43,867 bases of DNA, from positions 1 to 43,867 of the forward strand of contig DATDJD010000095.1 in the NCBI GenBank assembly GCA_036520695.1, given 5' to 3'. Under the pieces are notes generated by a model. It saw only the letters and a program-made list of their open reading frames with translations, did no database searches and had not been told where the DNA came from. Positions 5,630 through 36,172 of this stretch are shown piece after piece. Source of the stretch: Actinomycetota bacterium. Its GTDB lineage: Bacteria > Actinomycetota > UBA4738 > HRBIN12. Both the position numbers and the translations under genes were made by a program. The number at the start of each line of letters is the position of its first letter. Positions within the stretch are counted from its first letter, which is position 1.

Positions 5630-6817
5630 TCAGTCGAGGCCGGGAGGCCGGAACTTCGCGAGGGCTTCGGTGGAGACCTGCTCGACCTGTTGCAGTTCCT
5701 CGACCAAGCCGGGGAGGACGTCCAGCAGGGCGTCGACATCGTCGCTCGTGCTGGCATGACCTAACCCGATCCGGAAGGTACTGGTATTGGGCAGGCCGAG
5801 TCGATCCAACACCGGGGAGGCATCCTCGGGCCGGCCGTTGCACATGGAACCGGCACCCAAGCGGAGCCCTCGGTCGTCCAACGCCATCATCAGCGTGGGG
5901 GCATCGAGCCCGTCCACACTGAAGCAGACGAGGTGGGGGGTGCGGTGGGTCGGGTGTCCGTACACATGGGCCCCCGGGACCGACCCCTCGATGCCCTCTC
6001 GCAAGCGAGCCGTGAGCGCCCATTGGGCAGCAGCCGCATCCCCCATGGACGCCAGGGAAACCCGCAGCGCTGCCGCCATGGCGGCGATCCCCGGTGTGTT
6101 CTCCATGCCCGAGCGCCGCTTGCGCTCACGATCGTCTCCGCACGGGTAGGCCGTGACGGCGACGCCTCGCCGGACGTACAGCGCTCCGACCCCCGGCGGC
6201 CCTCCGAACTTGTGGGCGGACAGGGACAAGAGGTCGACGCCGAGCCCGTCGACGTCGACCGGCAAGCGGCCCACGGTCTGACAGGCATCGGTGTGGAAGC
6301 GAACCTTCGACCCACGAGCCAAACGCGCCGCTTCCCCCACCTGTTGCATCGTGCCCAGTTCGTGATTCGCATGTTGGACGCTGGCCAGCAGTGTGCCCGG
6401 CACCCGCACCTCGGCGGCGAAGCGATCCATGTCCATGCGTCCGTAGTCGTCGGCGGGGATCTCGACGATCTCGAAGCCGTCACTCGCCAAGACGTTGCCC
6501 ACGCCACCGACGGATGGGTGTTCCACGGCGCTCACCACCACCCGGCTTCCGAGCTCGCGCATCGCACGGACGCCACCCCAGATCGCGAGCGCGACAGACT
6601 CGGTGCCGCCAGACGTGAACACGATCTCATCGGCTTGGGCGCCGATCGCGTCGGCGACCGCCTCCCGCCCGTCATCCAACAAGGAACGGGCGTGGCGCCC
6701 CGGCTCATGGATCATGAGTGGGTCCCCGAACGTGTCGACGGCCGCGATGAATGCTTCGCGAGCCTCGGGCAAGAGGGGAGTGGCAGAGGCCCCGTCGAGA
6801 TAGATGGTGTTCACCAC
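5630..6817 (-). CDS. Class V aminotransferase, cysteine desulfurase (NifS/IscS-like)
   Basis: The 395-aa ORF contains [23 protein letters not shown], the PLP lysine in [22 protein letters not shown], and a C-terminal GAGSMCNG active-site Cys loop. The start is GTG. A TAGGCT hexamer lies 7 nt upstream. Confidence 0.85.
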
Positions 6818-24779: not shown

Positions 24780-25703
24780 ATGACCCGGGGCGAGCTCTTC
24801 GGCGTGGTGCCGAACTTCAGCGAAGGCCGGCGCGCGGACGTCATCGACGAGATCGTCGAGGCGCTGCACGTGCCGGGGGCGCGCGTCGTGTACGCCGAAG
24901 CAGACCCAGACCACAACCGGTTGGACACGACCGTGCTCGGTGACGCCGAGGCGGTCAGGGCCAGCGCGCTGGCTGGGGCCGCCGTCGCTGTGGAGCGGAT
25001 CGACATGAACCGGCATGAGGGTGGCCACCCTCGGATGGGCGCGGCCGACGTGATCCCGTTCATGCCGGTATCGGGTGCGTCGATGCAGGAGTGCGTCGAG
25101 CTCGCTCGAGGGTTCGGCCGGGAGCTCGCCGAGTCGCTGGATCTGCCCGTCTACCTCTACGACCAGGCCGCGTTGCTCCCGGAGCGCGCCTCGCTCGCCG
25201 ACGTCCGGCGAGGGCAGTTCGAAGGGCTGCGGGATGCCGTCGCGGCAGGGGAACGTCTCCCGGACTTCGGCCCGCACGTGATCGGGCCGAAAGGTGCGAC
25301 CGCCGTCGGCGCCAGGAAGCCGCTCGTGGCGTTCAACGTGTACCTCGACGGAACCGACGAACCTGCTGCCAAGGCGATCGCGTCGGCGATGCGAACGTCC
25401 AACGGCGGCCTGCCTGCCGTCCGAGCCATCGGGTTCGCGGTCCCGGAGCGCGGAGGGATCGTCACCGTCTCGATGAACCTGGTCGACCATGAGGTCACCG
25501 GGGTTATGGCCGCCTTCGACGAGGTGACCCGACTCGCGGCCGAGCAGGGCATGGCCGTCACCGATTCGGAGATCGTGGGTTTGGTGCCGGCATCGGCGCT
25601 GGACCCGGGCGACATCGACCACCTGCAGCTCGTGGGGTTCGATCTCGATCGACAGGTGCTGGAGCGGCTGGTGGACGCCGCGGAGGAGGGAACGAACACG
25701 TGA
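24780..25703 (+). CDS. ftcD: Glutamate formimidoyltransferase (FtcD N-terminal-type transferase domain)
   Basis: LFGVVPNFSEGRRADVIDEIVEAL...DPDHNRLDTTVLGD...GGHPRMGAADVIPF are formiminotransferase motifs. TATGCT lies 6 nt upstream of the ATG. Confidence 0.88.
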   Translation: MTRGELFGVVPNFSEGRRADVIDEIVEALHVPGARVVYAEADPDHNRLDTTVLGDAEAVRASALAGAAVAVERIDMNRHEGGHPRMGAADVIPFMPVSGASMQECVELARGFGRELAESLDLPVYLYDQAALLPERASLADVRRGQFEGLRDAVAAGERLPDFGPHVIGPKGATAVGARKPLVAFNVYLDGTDEPAAKAIASAMRTSNGGLPAVRAIGFAVPERGGIVTVSMNLVDHEVTGVMAAFDEVTRLAAEQGMAVTDSEIVGLVPASALDPGDIDHLQLVGFDLDRQVLERLVDAAEEGTNT

Positions 25704-26341
25704 GTGACCTGGAACTGGGCAGCTTGAGCGTCGAGGGGTTCTGCGAGGTATTGGCGTCAGATTCCCCGACACCTGGGGGCGGCGCGGTCGGAGCGATCGA
25801 GGCCGCCGCGGCAGCCTCGCTGATCGCGATGGTGGGCCGGCTCACGGTGGACAAAGCGGGGTTCGAAGACCTCGCCGAGCGGATGCGCGCCATGATCGTG
25901 ACGGCCGATGCTGCGCAGGCCGATTTCCTGCACCTGGCCGATCGCGATGCGCACGCCTTCGATTCCGTGATGGAGGCGTTCCGCATGCCGAAGGAGACCG
26001 ACGAGGACAAAGCTGCCCGATCGGCTGCGATCCAAGCGGGCTACCTCGCCGCCGCGTCCGTGCCGCAGGAGGTCGCGCGAAAAGCCGTCGACCTGATGGA
26101 GCTTGCGGAGGACGCCACCGCGATGGGCAACCCCCAGGCGGCCTCGGACGGATTGTCGGCGGCTGCGTCGCTGTATGCCGGTGCCCTTTGCGCGATCGCG
26201 AATGTGGAGATCAACGCGAGCTCCCTCAAGGACGTGGACACCCGGGCCACGATGCTCGCCGAGCTTGCGTCCCTGAAAGCACGAGCCGATCAGTCACTGA
26301 GGGAATCCCAGACCGCGTTCCAGCTCCGGCTCGCTCCGTAG
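25700..26341 (+). CDS. Formimino-THF cyclodeaminase / methenyl-THF cyclohydrolase family protein (FTCD C-terminal type)
   Basis: FCEVLASDSPTPGGGAVGAIEAAAAASLIAMVGRLT is the cyclodeaminase helical-bundle signature. The GTG start overlaps the transferase stop (GTGA, 25700-25703). The two halves of eukaryotic FTCD are therefore separate, coupled genes here. Confidence 0.85.
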   Translation: MSDLELGSLSVEGFCEVLASDSPTPGGGAVGAIEAAAAASLIAMVGRLTVDKAGFEDLAERMRAMIVTADAAQADFLHLADRDAHAFDSVMEAFRMPKETDEDKAARSAAIQAGYLAAASVPQEVARKAVDLMELAEDATAMGNPQAASDGLSAAASLYAGALCAIANVEINASSLKDVDTRATMLAELASLKARADQSLRESQTAFQLRLAP

Positions 26342-26366
26342 TAGCCGCCTCGGCTGCCACGGATCG

Positions 26367-28037
26367 CTAGAACAGCCCGACGGTCGTGCCGTCTTGGTCG
26401 ATATCGACGTGCTGGAAGGCGGGCGTCTTGCCAAGGCCGGGCATGCGCTGCATGTCACCGCACAGGACCACCACGAACCCGGCGCCGGCGCTGGGAACCA
26501 CTGCCCGCACGGGCAAGCGGAAACCGGTTGGCCGATTCAGCATGAGCGGGTCGTGGCTGAGGGACAGGTGGGTCTTCGCCATGCAGACGGGCATCTCACC
26601 GAACCCGAGTTCCTGCATGCGGGTGATGTCCTTCTCGGCCTGCGGCAAGTAGTCGACGCCGTCGGCGCCATAGACGCGGGTCGCGATCGCCTCGATCTGT
26701 TCCTTCAGGCCCGCGCCGGTCGGCGTCAGGAAATCGAACCTGTTGGTCTTCTCGCACGCCTCGACGACCGCGTGCGCGAGGTCGATCGCGCCCTGTCCCC
26801 CTTGTGCGAACGCACGGTTGACGACCACCGTTTCGGCGCCGGCACCCACCGCCAGGTCCTCGATCAGGGCGATCTCCGCCTCGGTATCGGTCGGGAAGTT
26901 GTTGATCGACACGACGCACGGCAAGCCGTACTGCCGGATGATGTTGATGTGCGCGCTGAGGTTGTCGATGCCAGCGCGCAAGGCCTCGAGATCCTCGTTC
27001 GCGAGATCGTTGAACGCCATCCCGCCGTGGGACTTCGTTGCGCGCACGGTGGTCACCAGCACTGCCGCGCTGGGCGTGAACCCGCCGAACCGACACACGA
27101 TGTCGCAGAACTTCTGGAAGCCGAGATCTGAGGCGAACCCCGCCTCGGTGATCACGTAGTCGGCGAGCTTCAGCGCCACCCGGTCCTCGATGATCGAGTT
27201 GTTGGCGTGGGCGATGTTGCCGAATGGACCGGCGTGTGCGAGAACGGGCTGACCCTCGAGCGTCTGCACGAGGTTGGGCTTGATCGCGTCCTTCATGATG
27301 ACGGTCATGGCGCCACCGGCCTGCAGGTCGTCGGCGGTGACCGGGGTTCCGTCGTAGGTCGAAGCCACCACGATGCGGCCGAGCCGCGTGCGCAGGTCCT
27401 GCAGGTCGCTCGCCAACGCGAAGATCGCCATGACCTCCGAGGCCGCCGCGATCACGAACCCGTCCTGGCGTGGGACGCCGTGTGCCTTGCCGCCCAGGCC
27501 CACGACGATGTTCCGCAGTTCCCGATCATTCATGTCCATCGTGCGGGGCCACGTGATCGATTGCGGGTCGATGTTGAGCACGTTGCCGTGGTAGATCGAC
27601 GCGTCGAGGGCCGCCGCCAGCAGGTTGTGTGCCGCCGCCACCGCGTGGAAGTCACCGTTGAAATGGAGGTTGAACTCTTCCATCGGCACGACCTGCGCGT
27701 AGCCGCCACCGTTGCCGCCGCCTTTGATACCCCAGACCGGACCCATCGAGGGCTCGCGCAGGCAGAGCATGACGTCCTTGCCGATCGCACCCAGGCCCTG
27801 GGTCAGGGACACGCTGGTGGTGGTCTTGCCTTCACCCGCCTTGGTGGGTGTGATCGCCGTGGTGATCACCAGCTTGCCGTCAGGCATGCCGGCGAGCCGA
27901 TCCAGGATCGAAAGATCGATCTTGGCGCGATCCCTGCCGTACTGCTCTAGCTCGTCGTCATGGATCCCGGCGGCGGCTGCGATGTCGGCGATGGGCGTGA
28001 GGGTGGCCTCTTGGGCGATCTCGAGTCCGGACTTCAT
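26367..28037 (-). CDS. fhs: Formate--tetrahydrofolate ligase
   Basis: The 556-aa ORF contains TPTKAGEGKTTTSVSLTQGL (P-loop) and GGGYAQVVPMEEFNLHFNGDFHAV, which are FTHFS signatures. Confidence 0.93.
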   Translation of the reverse strand: MKSGLEIAQEATLTPIADIAAAAGIHDDELEQYGRDRAKIDLSILDRLAGMPDGKLVITTAITPTKAGEGKTTTSVSLTQGLGAIGKDVMLCLREPSMGPVWGIKGGGNGGGYAQVVPMEEFNLHFNGDFHAVAAAHNLLAAALDASIYHGNVLNIDPQSITWPRTMDMNDRELRNIVVGLGGKAHGVPRQDGFVIAAASEVMAIFALASDLQDLRTRLGRIVVASTYDGTPVTADDLQAGGAMTVIMKDAIKPNLVQTLEGQPVLAHAGPFGNIAHANNSIIEDRVALKLADYVITEAGFASDLGFQKFCDIVCRFGGFTPSAAVLVTTVRATKSHGGMAFNDLANEDLEALRAGIDNLSAHINIIRQYGLPCVVSINNFPTDTEAEIALIEDLAVGAGAETVVVNRAFAQGGQGAIDLAHAVVEACEKTNRFDFLTPTGAGLKEQIEAIATRVYGADGVDYLPQAEKDITRMQELGFGEMPVCMAKTHLSLSHDPLMLNRPTGFRLPVRAVVPSAGAGFVVVLCGDMQRMPGLGKTPAFQHVDIDQDGTTVGLF

Positions 28038-28149
28038 GGGTGCGTCGGTTCCTTCCGTTTGATCGGGCGTTCAACGTCGGACGATACGACCCGAAGGCGC
28101 CTGGCTCCAAACGGTCGTTGCGTCGTGCGCGACGTTGGATACTGGTGAC

Positions 28150-28992
28150 ATGGCCGACACGGTTCCTCCCATCCGCAGGAACGTCACCCCCGTTCGCGTG
28201 GTCGCCGTCAACGGTGGGGTGCGCTCGGAACGGCCGGATACCCTGGCCACCGAGGAACCGTTGGAGATCCGTGTCGCGGGACCTGGACAGGACGCGACGC
28301 AGGTGGCGGTCACGATGCGTACCCCCGGGGGCGACTTCGAGCTGGCGGTGGGGTTCCTGTTCACCGAAGGGCTCATCGCGCCGAGCGACGTGGCGCGCGT
28401 GGCCTATTGCGACGACCTCGAGGACGAGGAGCAGCGCTTCAACGTGGTGACGGTCACCTTGACCCGGGCGTTCGACGCCTCCAGCCTGCATCGCAACTTC
28501 TTCGCGACCTCCTCGTGTGGGATCTGCGGCAAGGCGGCGTTGGACGACATCCAGGTGCGATGCGCTCCAGTGGCGTCTGGGCCCGAGGTGGCAGCGTCCA
28601 CGATCGTGGGGTTGCCGGACTCGCTCCGCGCCGGACAACGAGTGTTCGACCGCACGGGAGGGCTACACGCCGCGGGCCTGTTCACGCCCGAGGGCGAGTT
28701 GGTGAGCCTGCGCGAGGACGTCGGCCGTCACAACGCCGTCGACAAGGTGATCGGCGAGCAGGTGCTTGCTGGTTCGGTGCCATCGGCCGAGCGGATCCTG
28801 CAGGTCAGCGGACGGGCGAGTTTCGAGATCGTCCAGAAGGCGGCGGTCGCCGGCATCCCCATCGTGAGCGCCGTGAGCGCGCCCTCGTCATTGGCGGTGG
28901 AAGCGGGGGAGCGCTTCGGGATGACGATCGTGGGCTTCGTGCGGGGCGATCGATGCAACGTCTACAGCCACGCCGAGCGCGTGCTGGCCTGA
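28150..28992 (+). CDS. fdhD: Formate dehydrogenase accessory sulfurtransferase FdhD
   Basis: TEEPLEIRV, SSCGICGKAALDD, GGLHAAGLF and EDVGRHNAVDKVIG are FdhD motifs. I prefer ATG 28150 (MADTVPP) over the track's TTG 28135. GATACT lies 6 nt upstream. Confidence 0.88.
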   Translation: MADTVPPIRRNVTPVRVVAVNGGVRSERPDTLATEEPLEIRVAGPGQDATQVAVTMRTPGGDFELAVGFLFTEGLIAPSDVARVAYCDDLEDEEQRFNVVTVTLTRAFDASSLHRNFFATSSCGICGKAALDDIQVRCAPVASGPEVAASTIVGLPDSLRAGQRVFDRTGGLHAAGLFTPEGELVSLREDVGRHNAVDKVIGEQVLAGSVPSAERILQVSGRASFEIVQKAAVAGIPIVSAVSAPSSLAVEAGERFGMTIVGFVRGDRCNVYSHAERVLA

Positions 28993-29014: not shown

Positions 29015-29515
29015 TCAGTCGCCTCGCATCTCCGGCACCCGAGATTCCCAGTCGTAGATGACCGAGGTTCGGAACACCAGGTCGTGCACGGATGCGTTCC
29101 GCTTGCTGACCGCGCTCCAGAACAGGCCCAGCGGGAACAGCACACACGTGAGGGCTCGCAGGAAGGAACGGGCGACGCGGACGCGCTCACCCTTGTCGGT
29201 CTGGATGCGTAAGCCCATGATCCGCATCCCCATCGTGCGCCCCAGGCTGGACCACGCGATCGTGAGCGCCAGCACAGCCACGATCATGGCGACGACGAGG
29301 AACACCGGGAAGTCGGTCTTCGGCCACGTGAATCTGACCGGGTTCCGCAAGAACCGGACCCCGGCGTAGCCGGCGTAGACGATCCCGCAGATCACGGCGA
29401 CGTAGACGATGTCGACCACCATGGCGATGGTCCGAGAGACCACCCCGGCTCGTTGACCCTGTTGCTCGGCGGCGCTCGCCGGGAACAGATGCGAGGCTCC
29501 TGTCGCTTGCTCCAT
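29015..29515 (-). CDS. RDD-family integral membrane protein
   Basis: From ATG 29515 the protein reads MEQATG...GVVSRTIAMVVDIVYVAVICGIVYAG...SVHDLVFRTSVIY. The R..D and HD..T positions of RDD domains are present, with three hydrophobic helices. The start shares one base with the upstream stop (TGATG). Confidence 0.8.
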   Translation of the reverse strand: MEQATGASHLFPASAAEQQGQRAGVVSRTIAMVVDIVYVAVICGIVYAGYAGVRFLRNPVRFTWPKTDFPVFLVVAMIVAVLALTIAWSSLGRTMGMRIMGLRIQTDKGERVRVARSFLRALTCVLFPLGLFWSAVSKRNASVHDLVFRTSVIYDWESRVPEMRGD

Positions 29516-30564
29516 CACCGATCTCCCGAGGGTGGGTCGAGATCCCGGGCTTCTCGACGCAGCACCTTGTCGACGATCCGCGAGACCAGACGATCGGCGT
29601 TCATGCCCTGCACACGGACGGTCTGCACGCTCTCGCTCGCCATGGCGCCGGAGGACTCGCGAACGATCGCCGGCAGGTCGACGTCGTCGATGACCTCCTG
29701 CGCGATCGCCCCCAGGTCGAGGCGATCGATGATCGAGGTGATATCGACCCGTTCGACGATGCGCTCGATGTCGACACCGTCCACGACCTCGTTCAGGTCG
29801 ACGGTGCCGATCACGCGCTGCACGTCGACGCGGTCGATGATCGCGTCCATGTCGACCTTCGCGACGATCGCGTCGATATCGACCCGATCCATGATCTTGT
29901 CGAGGTCGACGTCTTCGACGATGGCGTTCACGTCGACGCGTTCCTTGACGAGGGCGGTCAGGTCGACCTGGTCCATCACGCCCTTCACGATCTCGGGCAC
30001 CAGGATCGCCAGGAACGATGAAGCCGCCTCCAGCGTCTCTGCCTGTGCCGCCTTCCATTGGCCATCGAGCACCCGGGTCGCTCCGCCGGCAACCTCGGTC
30101 GCCTGCTTCGCGAACTTCGGATCGATGACCCATGAGATCAACGGCGCCATGGCCTCGGCGGCCTTGGTGGCTGCTGACGCGGCCGCCTCTGCGGCCGTCA
30201 CGGCGGCACCCAGGCCGGCACCGGCGAGCATCGCCGCCGGGTCTGCCTCGGTTTCGGCGCTCTCGTCGCGTTCTGGCATCGTTGCTCGGAGGGCATCTGC
30301 GAACGCCGTGGCACCCGCCGAGAACATCCCTGCTCCGACCCGCATCCCTTGCTCGAGCAGACCGGCGACCGCGGTGCCGGGGATCGGTGAGCTGGGCGCC
30401 TCCTCGTCCTCCTGGGGGTCATCCATGCCGGCGGCGAGAGCTTCCTCGTAGCTCATCTCGCGGTCGTCGGTCTCGATGCCCTCATCGGAAGGAGGCACGC
30501 GAAGCGGCACGACGTTGTCTGGCTGCTCGTTCGACGGCGTCTCGCCGATCGGGATGCGATCCAT
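29515..30564 (-). CDS. Hypothetical acidic protein with eleven tandem VDxxxIVxx nonapeptide repeats
   Basis: From ATG 30564 (MDRIPIGETPSNEQ...) there is an acidic N-terminus, then an Ala-rich segment, then VDLTALVKER VDVNAIVED VDLDKIMDR VDIDAIVAK VDMDAIIDR VDVQRVIGT VDLNEVVDG VDIERIVER VDITSIIDR LDLGAIAQEVIDD VDLPAIVRE. G/C is high at third positions. I recognise no family. The upstream part of track ORF 29515..31248 is antisense to the fdh gene and is rejected. The start codon is uncertain because the SD is weak. Confidence 0.7.
   Translation of the reverse strand: MDRIPIGETPSNEQPDNVVPLRVPPSDEGIETDDREMSYEEALAAGMDDPQEDEEAPSSPIPGTAVAGLLEQGMRVGAGMFSAGATAFADALRATMPERDESAETEADPAAMLAGAGLGAAVTAAEAAASAATKAAEAMAPLISWVIDPKFAKQATEVAGGATRVLDGQWKAAQAETLEAASSFLAILVPEIVKGVMDQVDLTALVKERVDVNAIVEDVDLDKIMDRVDIDAIVAKVDMDAIIDRVDVQRVIGTVDLNEVVDGVDIERIVERVDITSIIDRLDLGAIAQEVIDDVDLPAIVRESSGAMASESVQTVRVQGMNADRLVSRIVDKVLRREARDLDPPSGDR
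29677..29967 (-). repeat. 27-nt-period coding tandem repeat phased by GTCGAC (VD codons)
   Basis: GTCGAC, or a one-mismatch variant, starts at 29677, 29716, 29743, 29770, 29797, 29824, 29851, 29878, 29905, 29932 and 29962. The spacings are 39, then 27 eight times, then 30. Confidence 0.9.
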
Positions 30565-30673
30565 AGGACCCCAGCATGAACCCCTCCGCTCAGCTTGACC
30601 ACTCGTGGATAAGATGGGCAGGTCCGGCCGCGCCGCGGTCGGGCGGAACGTCAACGGAAGGAGCACTGCCTCG

Positions 30674-32617
30674 ATGAGCAGGACGCTCACCCGGCTGACC
30701 GAGCCGATGGTCCGCGAGGACGGCGAACTGCGTGTCGCGACCTGGGACGAAGCCCTCGATCGGGCTGCCCAAGGATTGCGCCGCGCCGCCGATCGCAACC
30801 CCGGCTGGGGCACAGGGGTGTTCAGTTGCTCCAAGGCCACCAACGAGATGAACTTCGTCGCACAGAAGTTCAGCCGCCAGGTCTTGGGCAGCAACAACAT
30901 CGATAGCTGTAACCGCACCTGACACGCTCCTTCGGTGGTCGGTCTGGCCACCGTGTTCGGAGCCGGAGGCGGCACCAGTTCATATGAGGAGGTCGAGAAC
31001 ACCGACCTCATCCTGCTGTGGGGCTCCAATGCACGAGCCGCACACCCCATCTTCTTCCACCGCGTCCTGAAGGCGGTCAACAAGGGTGCCACGCTGATCG
31101 TGGTGGACCCACGTCGAACCGAGTCCGCCGAATGGGGCGATCTATGGTTGGGTATCGACGTCGGCACCGACATCGCCCTGTCCAACACGATCGCGCGCGA
31201 GATCGTCGTCAACGAGCTGCAGCACCACACGTTCATCGAGCACGCCACGCTGGGCTACTCCGAGTACGTCGATTCGATCATGGACTGGACGCTCGAGCGC
31301 GGCGAGCAGGTCACGGGCGTACCTGCCGACGTGATCCGGGAAGTGGCCCACGCGTACGCGAAGGCCGACCGGGCGATGATCTGCTGGACGTTGGGCATCA
31401 CCGAGCATCACAACGCCGTCGACAACGTGCTCTCCCTGATCAACCTGTCGCTACTGACCGGGCATGTGGGCACGTACGGCAGCGGTGTGAACCCGCTGCG
31501 AGGCCAGAACAACGTCCAGGGTGGCGGCGACATGGGCGCGATCCCTAACAAGCTGCCGGGATTCCAGGACATCGAGAAGGATGACGCGGCACGGCAGAAG
31601 TTCGAAGCGGCCTGGGACGTGCCGATCATCCCGAAGTACGGCTACACCCTGACCCAGATGTTCGAAGCGATGGATCGGGGTGAGTTGACCGCCGCGTACG
31701 TGATCGGGGAGAACCCGGCCAGCAGCGAGGCGGACAAGCAACACACCGAAGTACTCCTCCGCGGCCTCGACACCTTGATCGTCCAGGACCTCTTCATGAC
31801 CCGAACCGCTGAGCTCGCCGATGTGGTGCTCCCGGCGTCGAACGCGTCCTTCGAGTCCGATGGCACCGTCACGAACTCCGAACGTCGTGTGCAACGCGTT
31901 CGCAAGGCGCTGGATCCCCCGGGCGACGCACGTGACGACATCTGGATCATCGCCGAGCTCGCCCGGCGTATGGGTGCGACCGGGTGGGAGGAGGTCACCG
32001 CGGAGGGTGCGTGGGAAGAGCTCCGAACCCTGAGTCCGATGCACGCAGGGATGAGCTGGCAGCGCCTCGAGGACCTTGGAGGCCTCCAGTGGCCGTGCCC
32101 GGACGAAGAGCACCCAGGCACCATGTTCCTGCACGCCCGTCTGTGGGCAGAGGACCCCGCCGAGCAGGGTGCGAAGGCGCCGTTCTCGATCGTCATCGAC
32201 GAGCCACCGGTGGACGAACTCAGCGATGAATTCCCGTTGCGGCTCACCACCGGACGCAGGCTGGATTCCTACAACACGGGTGTCCAGACCGGCGCCTACA
32301 CGTCGCCGCTCCGACGTGGCGAGACGATCGATGTCTCGCCAGAGGACGCGGAGCGGATGGGGTTGGCCGAGGATCAGTGCGTGATCGTGTCCAGCCGTCG
32401 CGGCTCGCTGGAAGTACCGGTCCACGTCGACCCCGCGTTGCGTCCCGGGCTGGTCTTCATGACCTTCCACTTCCCCGACGAGGTGGATACGAACGTGCTC
32501 ACGATCGAGGCGACCGACCCGAAGTCGGGGACCGCTGAGTTCAAGGCGTCGGCCGTGCGCATCGACACGATGCCTGCCGATCGGTCGGTCGGGGTTTCGG
32601 GCGCTGGCGGGGAGTAG
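30674..32617 (+). CDS. fdhA: Formate dehydrogenase catalytic (Mo-bisPGD) polypeptide lacking the N-terminal Fe-S modules. In-frame TGA 30920-30922 is predicted to encode selenocysteine.
   Basis: Track ORFs 30605..30922 and 30935..32617 share one frame and are separated only by the TGA. GSNNIDSCNRT-TGA-HAPSVVGL aligns with the FdhF active-site segment. Downstream are typical MopB and molybdopterin-binding regions (ILLWGSNARAAHP..., the C-terminal TFHFPDE...TDPKSGTAEFKA barrel). ATG 30674 (MSRTLTRLTEPMVRE) has GGAAGGAG 10 nt upstream. Confidence 0.85.
30920..30953 (+). promoter_or_regulatory. UGA (Sec) codon plus a bacterial SECIS-like hairpin
   Basis: UGA at 30920-30922. The stem CGGUGGUC (30933-30940) pairs with GGCCACCG (30946-30953), 8 bp including one G.U. 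The apical loop GGUCU (30941-30945) starts 18 nt after the UGA. Confidence 0.65.
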
Positions 32618-32677
32618 AGTCTCCCGCGTGATGTCGGCCGCCTGCCCCCTCGCGATCGTTCGCTCCTCGGAGGTGCG

Positions 32678-34555
32678 TTGGACCTCCATCTGACGGACGC
32701 ACGGGCCACCGATGACGAACGGGCCGCGGTCGATGGCCTCCTCGGCCCACCGAACAGCTCGTGGGATGGCGCTGCCGTACGGTCCGAGTTCGACCATCGG
32801 GTGGCCAGGGCCGGTAAGGACGCTCGTGGTCAGCGCGACCTCCTGTTGCCCACGCTGCACGCGTTGCAGGCGGGCGTGGGGTGGATCAGCCCCGGCGGTC
32901 TCAACTACGTCAGTGAGCGACTCACCGTGCCGCCTGCCGAGGCCTACGGGGTCGCCACCTTCTACGCCATGTTCAGCGTCGAGGAACGCCCGACGACCGT
33001 CGTGCATGTGTGCGACGACCTCGCGTGCCGGCAGGTGGGTGGTGCCGAGATCCTGTCCCGACTCGAGGGTTCGCAGGCTCATGCGGTGGCGAGCCCCTGT
33101 CTCGGGCTGTGCGAACACGCGCCGGCAGCCTTGATCCAAGTGGCAGGGTCGAAGGCGTCTGACGCCTCGGTGGCGCCGATCACGCCGGAGATCGAAGGGC
33201 TCCTCGCCGCCGGTGGTGCCGCCGCCGGTGATACCCGAGGGGTCAACGATCCTCAGGCCCCTGACTCGCTCCGTCTGCTGCGGCGGGTCGGCGTCGTCGA
33301 CCCGACCTCGATCGACGACTATCGGGCGCATGGCGGGTACGAGGCGCTCCGTCTCGCGCTCGAACACGGCCCGGAGTGGACCCTTCGAGAGATCACCGAC
33401 GCGAAGTTGATGGGTCGCGGGGGCGCGGCGTTCCCGACCGGCGTGAAATGGAAGGCGGTCGCCGAACAGCCGGTGCACCCGCACTACTTCATCTGCAACG
33501 CCGACGAATCCGAGCCCGGCACCTTCAAGGACCGCGTCGTGATGGAGCAGGACCCGTTCGCGGTCATCGAAGCCCTCACGATCGCCGGCGTCACGACCGG
33601 GTGCGAGCTGGGCTACGTGTACATCCGGGGTGAGTACCCGTTGGCGACCCAACGCCTGGAACTCGCGATCGCCGAGGCTCGTCATCACGGGTTCCTCGGC
33701 GAGGACGTGATGGGCCACGGTGCCACCTTCGACATCGAACTGCGACGCGGCGCGGGTGCCTACATCTGCGGCGAGGAGACGGCGCTGTTCAACTCGCTGG
33801 AAGGCAAACGTGGTGAACCGCGGAACAAGCCTCCGTTCCCCGTGCAACGAGGGGTGTTCGGCAAACCCACCGGCATCAACAACGTCGAGACTCTGATCAA
33901 CGTGCTCGAGGTGCTGCCCATGGGCGGCCAGGCGTACGCGGAACTCGGCACCGAAGGATCGACGGGGCCACGGCTGTTCTGCCTGTCCGGCGCGGTGACC
34001 TCGCCGGGTGTGTACGAGTTCGAACATGGCACCACGCTGGGAGAGGTCATCGAGGCGGCGGGTGGTGTCCGCGACGGCAAGCAGCTGAAGGCGGTGTTGC
34101 TCGGTGGCGCCGCGGGGGGGTTCGTCGGGCCTGACCGTCTCGACGTGCGCTTGACGTTCGAGGATGCACGCGCCGGGGGCTACACCCTGGGGTCGGGGGT
34201 CGTGATGGTCTTCGACGAAGACGCGGATCTGACCGATGCGTGCCTGCGCATCGCGCGGTTCTTCCGCGATGAATCGTGCGGCCAATGCGTGCCGTGTCGT
34301 GTCGGCACCGTGCGGCAGGAGGAAGCGCTCCATCGCTTGGTGCAGGGTCGCCTGCTCGGCACCACGCAGGACGAGCTGCGGTTGCTCGAAGATGTGGCCC
34401 AGGTGATGCGGGACGCGTCGATCTGCGGCCTGGGCCAGACCGCCGCCAACGCGATCCAGTCGGCGATCGCATCGCTCGGCGTGTTCGGTGGCGACGCCGG
34501 CGATACGCTCGACGGTGACGCGGTGCCCACCGCGACCGAGGAACAGGAGTCGTAG
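32678..34555 (+). CDS. NuoE-like (2Fe-2S) / NuoF-like (FMN, NAD, 4Fe-4S) fusion, the diaphorase subunit of NAD-dependent formate dehydrogenase (FdsG-FdsB-type)
   Basis: The N-terminus LLPTLHALQAGVGWISPGGLNYVSERL...VCDDLACR...SPCLGLCEHAP is NuoE-type. It is followed by GRGGAAFPTGVKW...ICNADESEPGTFKDR...GAGAYICGEETAL...ESCGQCVPCRVG...ICGLGQ, which is NuoF-type. The TTG start is preceded by GGAGG at 4 nt. Confidence 0.88.
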   Translation: MDLHLTDARATDDERAAVDGLLGPPNSSWDGAAVRSEFDHRVARAGKDARGQRDLLLPTLHALQAGVGWISPGGLNYVSERLTVPPAEAYGVATFYAMFSVEERPTTVVHVCDDLACRQVGGAEILSRLEGSQAHAVASPCLGLCEHAPAALIQVAGSKASDASVAPITPEIEGLLAAGGAAAGDTRGVNDPQAPDSLRLLRRVGVVDPTSIDDYRAHGGYEALRLALEHGPEWTLREITDAKLMGRGGAAFPTGVKWKAVAEQPVHPHYFICNADESEPGTFKDRVVMEQDPFAVIEALTIAGVTTGCELGYVYIRGEYPLATQRLELAIAEARHHGFLGEDVMGHGATFDIELRRGAGAYICGEETALFNSLEGKRGEPRNKPPFPVQRGVFGKPTGINNVETLINVLEVLPMGGQAYAELGTEGSTGPRLFCLSGAVTSPGVYEFEHGTTLGEVIEAAGGVRDGKQLKAVLLGGAAGGFVGPDRLDVRLTFEDARAGGYTLGSGVVMVFDEDADLTDACLRIARFFRDESCGQCVPCRVGTVRQEEALHRLVQGRLLGTTQDELRLLEDVAQVMRDASICGLGQTAANAIQSAIASLGVFGGDAGDTLDGDAVPTATEEQES

Positions 34556-34557
34556 CG

Positions 34558-35547
34558 ATGGCCTCCGCCGTGCCCCTGGAACCGCCGCGCCGGCTGTTCA
34601 CGATGGAGGTCGACGGCACCGAGGTGCGGGTCGCTGACGGCGCCACGATCCTGGACGCGTGCCGTGCCCTCGAGGTCGACACGCCCACGTTGTGTTTCGC
34701 CGACAACCTCACGCCGGTCAACGCCTGTCGCGTGTGCGTCGTCGAGGTCGAAGGCGCCCGGACGCTCGTGCCTGCGTGCAGCCGCAAGGCCGAAGACGGC
34801 ATGAAGATCAAGACGGACACCGAACGCGTCCAGCACTCCCGCAAGCTGGTGATGGAGATGCTCGCGAGCAGCGTCGAGATGGAGCTCACGAGCCCCGATG
34901 TGCACCGGTGGATGGAGGACTACGAGGTCCACCCCGAACGCTTCGGGGCGCAGATGGATCCGTTGCCCGCGGGGGAGCGAGACGATCGCGAGCCCGGTCA
35001 CCACCACGACCCCACCGACCCCACGGTCGCCGAGGGTGTCCATCAGCCGATCAAGATCGACAACGAGCTGTACGTGCGCGACTACTCGCGCTGCATCCTC
35101 TGCTACAAGTGCGTCGAAGCCTGCGGTGTCGACGCACAGAACACGTTCGCGATCGCGGTGGCCGGGCGAGGGTTCGACGCCCGGATCTCAACGGAGTACG
35201 CGGTGGGCCTCGACGAGAGCGCGTGCGTCTACTGCGGCAACTGCATCGGGGTGTGTCCCACGGGGGCACTGATGTTCACGAGTGAGCACGAGCACCGTGA
35301 AGCCGGCACGTGGAACGAGGACGAACAGACCGTGACGAACACGATCTGTCCGTATTGCGGGGTGGGATGCGAGTTAGAGCTGCACGTGCAGGACAACGAG
35401 ATCGTCAAGGTCACCTCGCCCGCGGACCATTCGGTGACGAGCGGGCACCTCTGCATCAAGGGACGGTTCGGCTTCGCGTTCGTGCAATCGCGCAAGGGTG
35501 ACGATCCTTTGGCTCGCAAACGAAGGGCCCGGAAGGAGCGCGACTAG
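34558..35547 (+). CDS. Fe-S polypeptide corresponding to the N-terminal third of a NuoG-type formate dehydrogenase alpha subunit (2Fe-2S, ferredoxin-type 4Fe-4S clusters and the Mo-bisPGD-type 4Fe-4S FS0 motif)
   Basis: TLCFADNLTPVNACRVCVVEV is the 2Fe-2S motif. CILCYKCVEACG and CVYCGNCIGVCPTGAL are 4Fe-4S motifs. TICPYCGVGCELELHV...GHLCIKGRFGFAFV is the MopB N-terminal cluster. The protein then ends in a basic tail, SRKGDDPLARKRRARKERD. Confidence 0.85.
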   Translation: MASAVPLEPPRRLFTMEVDGTEVRVADGATILDACRALEVDTPTLCFADNLTPVNACRVCVVEVEGARTLVPACSRKAEDGMKIKTDTERVQHSRKLVMEMLASSVEMELTSPDVHRWMEDYEVHPERFGAQMDPLPAGERDDREPGHHHDPTDPTVAEGVHQPIKIDNELYVRDYSRCILCYKCVEACGVDAQNTFAIAVAGRGFDARISTEYAVGLDESACVYCGNCIGVCPTGALMFTSEHEHREAGTWNEDEQTVTNTICPYCGVGCELELHVQDNEIVKVTSPADHSVTSGHLCIKGRFGFAFVQSRKGDDPLARKRRARKERD

Positions 35548-36172
35548 TCTGGTACAGACTAGTGGAACCACGCGCGGCGTCGGGGCGACCGGCATCGTCC
35601 TGGCAGGTGGGCGTTCCCAGCGGTTCGGCTCGGACAAGCTCGTGGCTCCCTACCGGGGAGCACCGCTACTGGATCATGCTGTCCTGCGGCTCGCGGAGTG
35701 CACGCGTGAAGTCATCGTCGTACTCGCCCCCGAGGGCGTGGAGCCGTCCTTCCCTCCGGGTGTGTCGGTGCGCACGGTCCGAGACGCCATCGCGGACCAG
35801 GGACCCCTGGAAGGTGTCCTCGCGGGGCTGGTTGCTGCCGGGTCGGATCTCGCGGTCGTGATCGCGGGAGACATGCCCGAGGTCTCGACCGCAGTGGCCA
35901 TGGAGATGCTTCGCGTGGTGGCCAACGACGCCACGGTCCAGGCCGTGACGCTGCAGGATGGCGATCGGTTCCGGCCGCTCCCGCTGGTGGTTCGCACCGG
36001 TCCCGCGCTGGAGGCGGCTCATGCTCTCCGCCATCGCGGTGAAAGGAGATTGCGGGCCCTTCCTGAGGCGCTGCGAACCGCGGTGATCGACGAAGGCACG
36101 TGGCATGGTCTCGACCCGGAACTCGGGACGGTGTGGGACATCGACGAGCCGAGTGACCTACGGGGCCAGTAG
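35498..36172 (+). CDS. mobA: MobA-like NTP transferase (molybdenum cofactor guanylyl/cytidylyl-transferase)
   Basis: GIVLAGGRSQRFGSDKLVAPYRGAPLLDHAVLRL and IAGDMPEV are MobA/MocA motifs. The start is uncertain. GTG 35498 gives a 50-nt overlap with the Fe-S gene. The only other in-frame candidate before the LAGG motif is CTG 35549, 10 nt after GGAAGGAG. Confidence 0.75.
   Translation: MTILWLANEGPGRSATSLVQTSGTTRGVGATGIVLAGGRSQRFGSDKLVAPYRGAPLLDHAVLRLAECTREVIVVLAPEGVEPSFPPGVSVRTVRDAIADQGPLEGVLAGLVAAGSDLAVVIAGDMPEVSTAVAMEMLRVVANDATVQAVTLQDGDRFRPLPLVVRTGPALEAAHALRHRGERRLRALPEALRTAVIDEGTWHGLDPELGTVWDIDEPSDLRGQ
35543..35563. repeat. Perfect 21-nt inverted repeat ACTAGTCTG-GTA-CAGACTAGT
   Basis: The 9-nt arms at 35543-35551 and 35555-35563 have no mismatch. 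It is AT-rich relative to the window. It covers the TAG stop (35545-35547) of the Fe-S gene. Confidence 0.9.

What the first reader, a model, noticed from the sequence alone, without database searches (positions are those of the whole stretch)
29015..30564. Uncharacterised two-gene module inside the fdh locus: a nonapeptide-repeat acidic protein coupled to an RDD membrane protein
These two genes lie on the opposite strand, between fdhD and the FDH structural genes.

**First gene.** It encodes an acidic, Ala-rich N-terminal half and then eleven consecutive units with consensus V-D-[ILVM]-x-x-[IV]-[IVM]-x-x. At DNA level this is a 27-nt repeat phased by the palindromic hexamer GTCGAC, with eight exact 27-nt spacings. 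I cannot place the repeat in any family I know. It is not RTX, pentapeptide, LVIVD or collagen-like. The hydrophobic pattern (positions 1, 3, 6, 7 of 9) does not give one amphipathic helix face, so a solenoid or short helix-turn repeat seems more likely.

**Second gene.** The RDD-family membrane gene starts on the last base of the first gene's stop (TGATG). This implies stoichiometric co-expression.

Tandem 27-nt units could also vary in copy number by slippage.
Basis: partly seen in the sequence, partly recalled or inferred. Interest (0 to 1): 0.7.

Follow-up and report, generated by a model that had tools for sequence, protein, structure and literature searches.

The report
Nonapeptide-repeat protein paired with RDD

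Summary
Gene A (29515-30564, minus strand, 349 aa, here called REP) has 11 units of V-D-[LIVM]-x-x-[IV]-[IVM]-x-x, with eight exact 27-nt spacings between unit starts. Gene B (29015-29515, minus strand, 166 aa) is a canonical RDD protein whose ATG shares the A of REP's TGA.

- **GTCGAC:** the hexamer is simply the Val-Asp codons, not a DNA signal.
- **No known family:** REP matches nothing in Pfam, NCBIfam, PDB sequences or PDB folds. It still belongs to a large family: 2,142 representatives of 50%-identity clusters.
- **Pairing with RDD:** in 79 of 80 species-level genomes an RDD gene lies immediately next to REP. The RDD start overlaps the REP stop or lies within 10 nt of it in 68 of 74 loci.
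- **Link to fdh:** FDH, FdhD or FTHFS genes flank the pair in only 26 of 80 loci, all from the window's own clade.
- **Copy number:** roughly 3 to 46 units between species. Close relatives differ by whole 9- or 18-residue units.
- **Structure:** AlphaFold2 predicts 7-residue helices broken at each V-D.

Best reading (inferred): REP is a cytoplasmic arm of adjustable length, docked by its near-invariant C-terminal module on the RDD protein. Function is unknown.

The parts
29515..30564 (-). REP gene: 349-aa acidic nonapeptide-repeat protein (stop TGA 29517-29515)
   Evidence: ORF and translation. GC3 is 0.83. Third-position bias of substitutions against L005. 254 word-indexed homologues and 2,142 HMM hits among cluster representatives. 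The N-terminus MDRIPIG is conserved in homologues.
30385..30564 (-). REP residues 1-60: acidic tail predicted to be disordered, carrying the short motif IPIG...NVVPL
   Evidence: pLDDT is below 50 for residues 1-34 and 50-57. The motif NV[VI]x[LIF] occurs in 91 of 243 family members against 0.2 expected from shuffles. It is present in 17 of 25 fdh-linked loci and 0 of 31 other loci.
29971..30384 (-). REP residues 61-198: Ala/Gly-rich helical region with three long predicted helices
   Evidence: AlphaFold2 helices at 64-94, 109-147 and 149-199. Conserved columns include G79, G115, A116 and W170. No transmembrane-grade hydrophobicity: the maximum Kyte-Doolittle 19-residue mean (KD19) is 1.4.
29656..29967 (-). 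REP residues 200-303: array of 11 nonapeptide units (27-nt DNA period)
   Evidence: Unit table. TRF period 27. AlphaFold2 predicts 7-residue helices with 2-residue breaks at each V-D. Family-wide unit consensus is V-D-L-D-A-I-V-A-R, with Asp at position 2 in 93% of units.
29545..29724 (-). REP residues 281-340: near-invariant C-terminal module RLDLxAIAxEVIDxIDLPxIIRESSGAMASExVxxVRxQGxxADxxVxRxVDxxLRR (overlaps the last two units)
   Evidence: R317 and D324 are invariant across 93 diverse members. R302, S304, G306, A323, D332 and R337 are at least 90% conserved. The module was extracted from 225 homologues. Used alone as a query it retrieved 179 genomic loci.
29513..29517 (-). TGATG junction: the REP stop overlaps the RDD start by one base
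   Evidence: Sequence. A tight junction is conserved: overlap in 39 of 74 loci and a 0-10 nt gap in 29 of 74.
29015..29515 (-). RDD-family membrane protein gene (166 aa, three hydrophobic segments, net charge +8)
   Evidence: Pfam PF06271 at E = 1.3e-14, 55.1 bits against a cut-off of 24.1. Hydropathy. R28, D35 and D145 are invariant in the subfamily.
30565..30673 (.). Divergent intergenic region between REP and fdhA (fdhA start taken as ATG 30674)
   Evidence: Sequence. Homologous loci have an fdhA first ORF of 82-84 aa and about 125 bp of spacer. No sigma-70-like promoter or intrinsic terminator was found by the simple scan.

Best explanation
REP and RDD form a self-contained two-gene operon found widely in Actinomycetota.

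**Shown.** The two genes are almost always adjacent and tightly joined. REP has four parts.
- A variable N-terminal region.
- A helical Ala/Gly-rich region.
- An array of 9-residue units whose number changes freely.
- A near-invariant C-terminal module that ends in a basic tail.

REP has no signal peptide or transmembrane segment in this window and is very acidic. The RDD partner is a small, basic membrane protein with three hydrophobic segments and the family's conserved Arg and Asp residues.

**Inferred.**
- The two proteins are made together and form a membrane complex. REP's conserved C-terminal helix and basic tail dock on the cytoplasmic face of RDD.
- Each repeat unit is a short helix (L-x-x-I-V-x-x). 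It is started by an Asp N-cap and a hydrophobic staple between Val at position 1 and Ile at position 6.
- The array is therefore a rod- or spring-like alpha-solenoid whose length is set by unit number.
- The array holds the N-terminal helical domain and its acidic tail at a set distance from the membrane, acting as a tether or scaffold for a still unknown client.
- The fdh position in this window is an inherited feature of one clade, not the module's general context.
For: **Adjacency.**
- An RDD homologue lies directly next to REP in 79 of 80 GTDB species loci, on the same strand in 78.
- Starting from the three most distant RDD hits, a REP gene lies upstream with an ATGA overlap in 3 of 3.
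- The junction overlaps or leaves 10 nt or less in 68 of 74 loci.
- No other gene family recurs in more than 12 of the 54 loci without fdh genes.

**Anatomy.**
- The C-terminal module is the most conserved part of REP.
- Unit number ranges from about 3 to 46, and close relatives differ by whole units.
- AlphaFold2 gave 7-residue helices with 2-residue breaks at V-D in two independent runs, with pLDDT 70-80 in the array.
- Asp occupies unit position 2 in 93% of units, with hydrophobic residues at positions 1, 3, 6 and 7. This fits the textbook N-cap and hydrophobic-staple helix start signal (my own knowledge).
- REP net charge is -39 with no transmembrane segment. RDD net charge is +8, and one of its loops carries 7 Lys/Arg.

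**Precedent.** The RDD protein SppI forms a membrane complex with SppA, the product of its neighbouring gene (PMC7568657). Comparative analysis places a conserved intramembrane site of RDD towards the cytoplasm (PMC12419801).
Against: - No direct test of the interaction was possible. No multimer prediction could be run, and the only apparent REP-RDD fusions (P0040, P0090, P0209) look like frameshift or gene-calling artefacts.
- pTM is low (0.24-0.25), so the three-dimensional path of the array is not established.
- About half of the distant family members have a moderately hydrophobic N-terminal helix (KD19 >= 1.6 in 62 of 118). In those, REP may itself touch or cross the membrane, and its topology could differ.
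- One RDD protein has been reported as a Na+/H+ antiporter (PMC5996927). That would make RDD the active part rather than an anchor.
- No client of the proposed tether is known.
Confidence: 0.45

Rival explanations
1. RDD is the working part, an ion or small-molecule transporter like the Halobacillus RDD Na+(Li+,K+)/H+ antiporter. REP is its cytoplasmic regulatory or gating subunit. The acidic repeat array may sense cations or pH.
For: An RDD protein showed antiport activity that depends on conserved Arg and Asp residues (PMC5996927). The window's RDD keeps R28, D35 and D145. REP is very Asp-rich, with an Asp in every unit. The conserved tight coupling also fits a transporter with a regulatory subunit.
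Against: The antiporter result is a single report, and overexpression or deletion of B. subtilis SppI gave no salt or pH phenotype (PMC7568657). A sensor would not be expected to tolerate 3 to 46 units. The conserved Asp sits where a helix N-cap is expected, so it is explained structurally.
Confidence: 0.2
2. The pair is an accessory of the formate dehydrogenase. It might tether the soluble Sec-containing FDH to the membrane or move formate or ions for it.
For: The order fdhA, then REP-RDD on the opposite strand, then fdhD and FTHFS, is kept in all 26 fdh-linked GTDB loci and in L001-L004, at REP identities down to about 40%. REP is transcribed divergently from fdhA. The N-terminal IPIG...NVVPL motif occurs in 17 of 25 fdh-linked loci and 0 of 31 others.
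Against: 54 of 80 loci have no FDH, FdhD or FTHFS homologue within the flanks of up to 6 kb, and their neighbours are heterogeneous. The fdh link and the motif are both confined to one clade, so shared ancestry can explain both. At most this is a lineage-specific use of a general module.
Confidence: 0.12
3. The array is not a solenoid of short helices. It is one long helix with an 18-residue (five-turn) period and two opposite hydrophobic stripes, which assembles into bundles or filaments like actinobacterial coiled-coil scaffold proteins.
For: Two 9-residue units equal five alpha-helical turns exactly (arithmetic). TRF sees a 54-nt period. Recent duplications and indels often involve 18-residue double units, as in P0099, P0105, P0115, P0003 and P0007. 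pTM is low, so the kinks are not certain.
Against: AlphaFold2 broke the helix at every V-D in both runs. Near-invariant Asp flanked by hydrophobic residues is a helix-start signal, not a coiled-coil pattern. Single-unit 9-residue indels also occur, as in P0006 and P0008.
Confidence: 0.15
4. The 27-nt array is a contingency locus that changes length rapidly by replication slippage to vary a surface or envelope property.
For: Relatives at 79-91% identity differ by whole units. Species differ widely in unit number.
Against: The DNA units in the window are only about 62% alike, which is poor substrate for slippage. All changes stay in frame, so no on/off switching is possible. The protein has no export signal.
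Confidence: 0.05

Closest known systems
RDD family membrane proteins (Pfam PF06271; B. subtilis YckC and SppI/YteJ; Halobacillus andaensis RDD)
   Same: Gene B is a member. The Pfam score is above the cut-off. It has three hydrophobic segments. The conserved Arg, Asp and Asp are retained as R28, D35 and D145.
   Different: This subfamily has its own invariant motifs: P..A...QG..AG at the N-terminus and TSVIYDW at the C-terminus. It is tied to REP, not to SppA. The function of the family as a whole is unsettled (PMC12419801).
SppA-SppI pair of Bacillus subtilis (an RDD protein complexed with its neighbouring gene's product)
   Same: An RDD membrane protein is encoded next to a partner and forms a membrane complex with it (PMC7568657). 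This is the working analogy for REP-RDD.
   Different: That partner is a signal peptide peptidase with a known fold and activity. REP is an acidic repeat protein with no enzyme domain, and the neighbours of the window's RDD are REP and FdhD, not a peptidase.
RTX nonapeptide repeats (GGxGxDxUx, calcium-binding beta-roll)
   Same: The period is nine residues, there is a conserved Asp in each unit, and unit number varies (PMC6891781).
   Different: REP units contain no Gly motif, are predicted helical rather than beta, give no Pfam HemolysinCabind hit, and sit in a protein without a secretion signal.
Alpha-solenoid repeat proteins (HEAT, TPR, Sel1, armadillo; my own knowledge)
   Same: They are tandem helical units stacked into an elongated scaffold whose length depends on unit number.
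   Different: Known alpha-solenoid units are about 30-45 residues with two or three helices. REP units are 9 residues with one 7-residue helix. Foldseek found no PDB match.

Membership tests
RDD family (PF06271), gene B | Match to the family profile above the curated cut-off | tested here: met
   E = 1.3e-14, 55.1 bits against a cut-off of 24.1, covering profile positions 2-135 of 137.
RDD family (PF06271), gene B | Conserved Arg before the first membrane segment and two conserved Asp residues | tested here: met
   R28, D35 and D145 are invariant in an alignment of 18 subfamily members.
RDD family (PF06271), gene B | Small integral membrane protein with two or three hydrophobic segments | tested here: met
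   Kyte-Doolittle 19-residue peaks of 2.45, 2.83 and 1.74 centred near residues 40, 78 and 127.
RDD family (PF06271), gene B | Cation/proton antiport, as reported for the Halobacillus member | not testable with these tools
   Needs everted-vesicle assays (PMC5996927).
SppA-SppI type pair | An RDD gene adjacent to a signal peptide peptidase (SppA) gene | tested here: not met
   The neighbours of the window's RDD are REP, which has no Pfam family, and FdhD.
RTX / HemolysinCabind repeats, gene A | GGxGxDxUx nonapeptide matching PF00353 | tested here: not met
   No such hit at E <= 1. The units contain no Gly motif.
Pentapeptide, LVIVD or collagen-like repeats, gene A | Match to the corresponding Pfam repeat models | tested here: not met
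   For the window's protein, the only Pfam hit at E <= 1 was GatB_Yqey at 0.32. For 93 diverse members scanned at E <= 0.01 there were only five scattered single-member hits.
Any curated protein family or solved structure, gene A | Significant sequence, profile or fold match | tested here: not met
   The best NCBIfam hit scored 17.6 bits against a cut-off of 205. The best E-values were 0.43 for PDB phmmer and 0.78 for the PDB profile search. The best Foldseek PDB E-value was 2.3 for the full model, with no match for the repeat domain. No match in plasmid records.

The most novel reading that the evidence does not exclude
REP is the founding example of a new class of alpha-solenoid built from the shortest known helical repeat: a 9-residue unit with one Asp-capped 7-residue helix. 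It serves as a length-adjustable cytoplasmic arm of an RDD membrane protein, which would give the first experimental handle on what RDD proteins do. In the window's lineage the arm has gained an acidic N-terminal tail with a short docking motif and sits in the fdh cluster, where it might tether the soluble selenocysteine-containing formate dehydrogenase to the membrane.
Probability: 0.15. Interest if true: 0.8.

Novelty: categorically new. Interest (0 to 1): 0.6.

Why it matters
**RDD proteins.** They are common in bacteria, but their role is unsettled. One member is reported as an antiporter, one as a protease partner, and comparative work calls the domain enigmatic. A subfamily that is almost always co-encoded and tightly coupled with one soluble partner gives a concrete, testable pairing. 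Cultured hosts are available in Nocardioides, Pseudonocardia, Geodermatophilus and Pedococcus.

**The repeat.** A 9-residue unit predicted to be one capped helix has no counterpart among solved structures. It tolerates from about 3 to about 46 copies. That makes it interesting both for repeat-protein structure and as a possible natural ruler or spacer.

**Annotation.** The family has at least 2,142 representatives of 50%-identity clusters and no model in Pfam or NCBIfam.

Tried and rejected
- **Family searches for REP.** Pfam, NCBIfam, PDB sequence, PDB profile and two Foldseek searches found nothing usable. Weak hits to Senescence, Flotillin, ApbE and AcrB are single-member or Ala-rich composition matches.
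- **Other collections and literature.** A plasmid tblastn gave no match. Literature searches on RDD and on nine-residue repeats found no description of REP.
- **Genome scan.** A tight C-terminal alignment, A3, worked.
- **Third homologue search.** Run with A3, it returned only fragments under 105 aa and no informative fusions. The RDD search returned only stand-alone proteins of about 165 aa.
- **Apparent REP-RDD fusions.** P0040 and P0090 contain garbled stretches typical of frameshifts, and P0209 is a single truncated case. They were rejected as Rosetta-stone evidence.
- **Long overlapping ORFs.** The 577-aa minus-strand ORF from 31248, the 372-aa ORF 29015-30133 and the 332-aa plus-strand ORF 29453-30451 were rejected as genes. 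Homologues start at MDRIPIG, and these ORFs are the usual high-G+C artefacts.
- **Signals around the genes.** Promoter, terminator and Rfam scans found nothing.
- **Model coordinates.** They were not available to scripts, so the geometry of the predicted solenoid could not be measured.
Full report
**1. What is in the window**

Two genes lie on the minus strand. The first, here called REP, runs from ATG 30564 to TGA 29517-29515 and encodes 349 aa. The second runs from 29515 to 29015 and encodes 166 aa. The second gene's ATG shares the A of the first gene's TGA, giving TGATG. An in-frame GTG three bases upstream is an alternative start.

Pfam annotation of the neighbours gives this map:

| Gene | Coordinates | Strand |
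|---|---|---|
| FTCD_N/FTCD | 24780-25703 | + |
| FTCD_C | 25700-26341 | + |
| FTHFS | 26367-28037 | - |
| FdhD | 28135-28992 | + |
| RDD | 29015-29515 | - |
| REP | 29515-30564 | - |
| FDH catalytic subunit | 30674-32617 | + |
| NuoE/NuoF-like fusion | 32678-34555 | + |
| Fe-S subunit | 34558-35547 | + |
| MobA-like | 35498-36172 | + |

**2. The repeat**

REP residues 200-303 form 11 units with consensus V-D-[LIVM]-x-x-[IV]-[IVM]-x-x.
- The first unit has one extra residue, and the tenth is followed by four extra residues.
- The unit starts are therefore spaced by 30 nt, then eight times 27 nt, then 39 nt.
- Tandem Repeats Finder detects the 27-nt period (8.8 copies, 62% matches) and a 54-nt period.
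- Eight units begin with GTCGAC, two with GTCGAT and one with CTCGAC.

The hexamer is the codon pair Val-Asp in a 67% G+C genome. It is enriched in the gene (8.6 per kb against 1.3 per kb elsewhere) only for that reason.

The frame is coding.
- GC3 is 0.83 for REP and 0.87 for RDD.
- Differences from the orthologue in locus L005 fall 67/36/159 on codon positions 1/2/3.

REP is very acidic, with net charge -39, and has no transmembrane-grade segment. RDD is basic, with net charge +8, and has three hydrophobic segments.

**3. No known family for REP**

- Pfam gave nothing for REP. This also tests and excludes RTX, pentapeptide, LVIVD and collagen models.
- NCBIfam gave only far sub-threshold noise.
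- PDB gave nothing by sequence or by profile.
- Among 93 diverse family members, no Pfam family was matched by more than one member.

Two AlphaFold2 runs gave the same secondary structure.
- The runs were the full-length protein with 60 sequences and residues 185-349 with 80 sequences.
- Mean pLDDT was 67 and 74, and pTM was 0.25 and 0.24.
- The N-terminal 60 residues are disordered.
- Three long helices follow.
- The repeat array is a series of 7-residue helices separated by 2-residue breaks exactly at each V-D.
- A C-terminal helix of about 45 residues ends the model.

Foldseek against the PDB found no significant match for either model.

Over 2,655 in-phase units from the family, position 2 is Asp in 93%, and positions 1, 3, 6 and 7 are hydrophobic. 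An Asp preceded by a hydrophobic residue, with another hydrophobic residue four positions later, is the classical N-cap plus hydrophobic-staple helix start signal (my own knowledge). This fits the predicted break at each V-D. The low pTM means the overall path of the array is not established.

**4. The family is large and actinobacterial**

- The word-indexed search found 254 homologues, all unnamed or called hypothetical.
- A profile search of 1.84 billion cluster representatives found 2,142 hits at E <= 1e-3 and 567 at E <= 1e-30.
- All share the layout: a variable N-terminal region, then a start unit LDLTxLV, then the array, then a strikingly conserved C-terminal module: RLDLxAIAxEVIDEIDLPEIIRESTGSMASETVRGVRMQGxxADxxVxRxVDRxLRRR.
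- R317 and D324 are invariant across 93 diverse members.
- A scan of one genome per GTDB species with that module gave 179 confirmed loci, of which the best 80 were kept.
- Nearly all are Actinomycetota. Cultured examples are Nocardioides agri, N. koreensis, N. terrigena, Pseudonocardia adelaidensis, Geodermatophilus aquaeductus and Pedococcus cremeus.

**5. What is conserved around REP**

A tblastn search of the window's proteins against these loci shows an RDD homologue directly next to REP in 79 of 80. It is on the same strand downstream in 78 and convergent in Geodermatophilus. It is absent only in L050, an assembly with evident frameshifts.

The association also holds when starting from RDD. 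For the three most distant RDD hits on long contigs, the upstream gene is a REP family member that overlaps RDD by ATGA in all three.

Across 74 evaluable loci, an RDD start codon overlaps the REP stop in 39 and lies 0-10 nt after it in 29.

FDH, FdhD or FTHFS homologues accompany the pair in only 26 of 80 GTDB loci, all from the window's own clade, plus the four loci fetched earlier. In the other 54 loci, no neighbouring gene family recurs in more than 12. Those that recur are unrelated: an ABC transporter, an acyl-CoA dehydrogenase, an MFS transporter and a small SHOCT-type membrane protein.

The conserved unit is therefore REP plus RDD. The fdh position is lineage-specific.

**6. Copy number**

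The close relatives P0003 (91% identity) and P0007 lack exactly 18 residues, which is two units. P0008 lacks nine residues and P0006 has nine extra.

Across species, a regex count of units runs from about 3 to about 46. Recent duplications of 18-residue double units are visible in P0099, P0105 and P0115.

Length change by whole units is thus frequent on evolutionary time scales. Slippage as the mechanism is not shown, because the window's DNA units are only about 62% alike.

**7. The RDD partner**

It is a canonical member of the family. The Pfam score is 55 bits against a cut-off of 24. The eponymous residues R28, D35 and D145 are invariant in the subfamily, along with subfamily-specific N- and C-terminal motifs. 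No solved structure matches it by sequence.

The literature gives three leads.
- A Halobacillus RDD protein behaves as a Na+(Li+,K+)/H+ antiporter (PMC5996927).
- B. subtilis SppI, an RDD protein, forms a membrane complex with SppA, the product of the adjacent gene, and inhibits it. It gave no salt or pH phenotype (PMC7568657).
- A comparative study calls the domain enigmatic and notes a conserved intramembrane site facing the cytoplasm (PMC12419801).

**8. Most likely mechanism**

Shown:
- Strict adjacency and a tight gene junction.
- A modular REP with a near-invariant C-terminal module.
- A freely variable array.
- Opposite net charges on the two proteins.

Inferred:
- REP and RDD are made together and form a membrane complex.
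- REP docks through its C-terminal helix and basic tail on the cytoplasmic side of RDD.
- The array is a rod or spring of short capped helices whose length depends on unit number.
- The N-terminal helical domain, and in this clade an acidic disordered tail, is held at a set distance from the membrane to bind an unknown client.

I put this at about 0.45.

Rivals:

| Rival explanation | Confidence |
|---|---|
| RDD is a transporter and REP is its regulator | 0.2 |
| The array is a continuous 18-residue-period helix forming bundles | 0.15 |
| The pair is an FDH accessory | 0.12 |
| The array is a slippage-driven contingency locus | 0.05 |

One uncertainty is topology. About half of the distant members carry a moderately hydrophobic N-terminal helix, with a Kyte-Doolittle 19-residue mean (KD19) of at least 1.6 in 62 of 118. 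The window's clade does not (6 of 94).

**9. A clade-specific feature**

The N-terminal tail carries a short motif, IPIG followed by NVV[P/R]L. It is found in 91 of 243 family members against 0.2 expected from shuffles. It occurs in 17 of 25 fdh-linked loci and 0 of 31 others.

Both traits belong to one clade, so this is only a lead. It allows the hypothesis that in this lineage the module was recruited to the formate dehydrogenase.

**10. Verdict**

The finding is real, and its interpretation is largely right. REP belongs to a large family that is not described in any library or paper I could search. It has a repeat type without a known structural counterpart. It is bound genetically to a subfamily of the poorly understood RDD membrane proteins. 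Function remains unknown, and the fdh context should not be over-read.

I rate novelty as categorically new for REP, while RDD is a known family. I rate interest at 0.6.

Noticed in passing
window 30920-30922 (within fdhA, 30674-32617 +): In-frame TGA inside the motif SCNRT-[TGA]-HAPSVVGL, the canonical selenocysteine position of formate dehydrogenases. An 8-bp hairpin begins 13 nt downstream, but its folding energy is not significant (z = -0.6). The same split ORF is called in relatives L001, L003 and L004. The window holds no tRNA genes.
   Followed up: partly
window 30674-35547: The FDH is arranged unusually. The molybdopterin catalytic part comes first. NuoE-like and NuoF-like domains are fused in one gene (32678-34555). 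The 2Fe-2S/4Fe-4S/Molybdop_Fe4S4 domains, which normally form the N-terminus of the catalytic subunit, are a separate gene downstream (34558-35547).
   Followed up: partly
window 30385-30564 (REP residues 1-60): The disordered acidic tail carries a conserved short motif, IPIG...NVV[P/R]L. It occurs in 91 of 243 family members against 0.2 expected by chance, and in 17 of 25 fdh-linked loci against 0 of 31 others. It may be a docking motif. The association is confounded by shared ancestry.
   Followed up: partly
window 24780-28037: One-carbon metabolism genes sit next to the fdh cluster: formiminotransferase and cyclodeaminase as two separate genes, and formate-tetrahydrofolate ligase. Relatives also carry glycine-cleavage T protein genes beside them (L001, L003).
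   Followed up: no
L047 5300-6668 (Geodermatophilus aquaeductus): The REP array has about 46 units, the longest seen. Here the RDD gene is convergent rather than co-directional.
   Followed up: partly
L067 (Nocardioides terrigena), REP gene ending near 6180: The array is organised as a higher-order repeat of about 23 residues (VDLTAVVLQR + VDLEAVVTTVLDR), copied about six times nearly identically. It is built from the same irregular 10- and 13-residue units that flank the array in the window.
   Followed up: no
L032 and L041; L038 and L039: Two separate REP-RDD pairs occur in the same metagenome-assembled genome, so the module can be present as paralogous copies.
   Followed up: no
L024 and L058: Two loci come from MAGs labelled Planctomycetaceae and Verrucomicrobiae. 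L024 carries the full actinobacterial-type fdh/FTHFS synteny at 71-77% identity to the window. This is probably contig mis-binning rather than wider taxonomic spread.
   Followed up: no
L050 4871-5281, L056 5131-5508 and about 8 other non-fdh loci: A small membrane protein with a SHOCT-like C-terminus is encoded just upstream of REP in about 10 of the loci that lack fdh genes.
   Followed up: no
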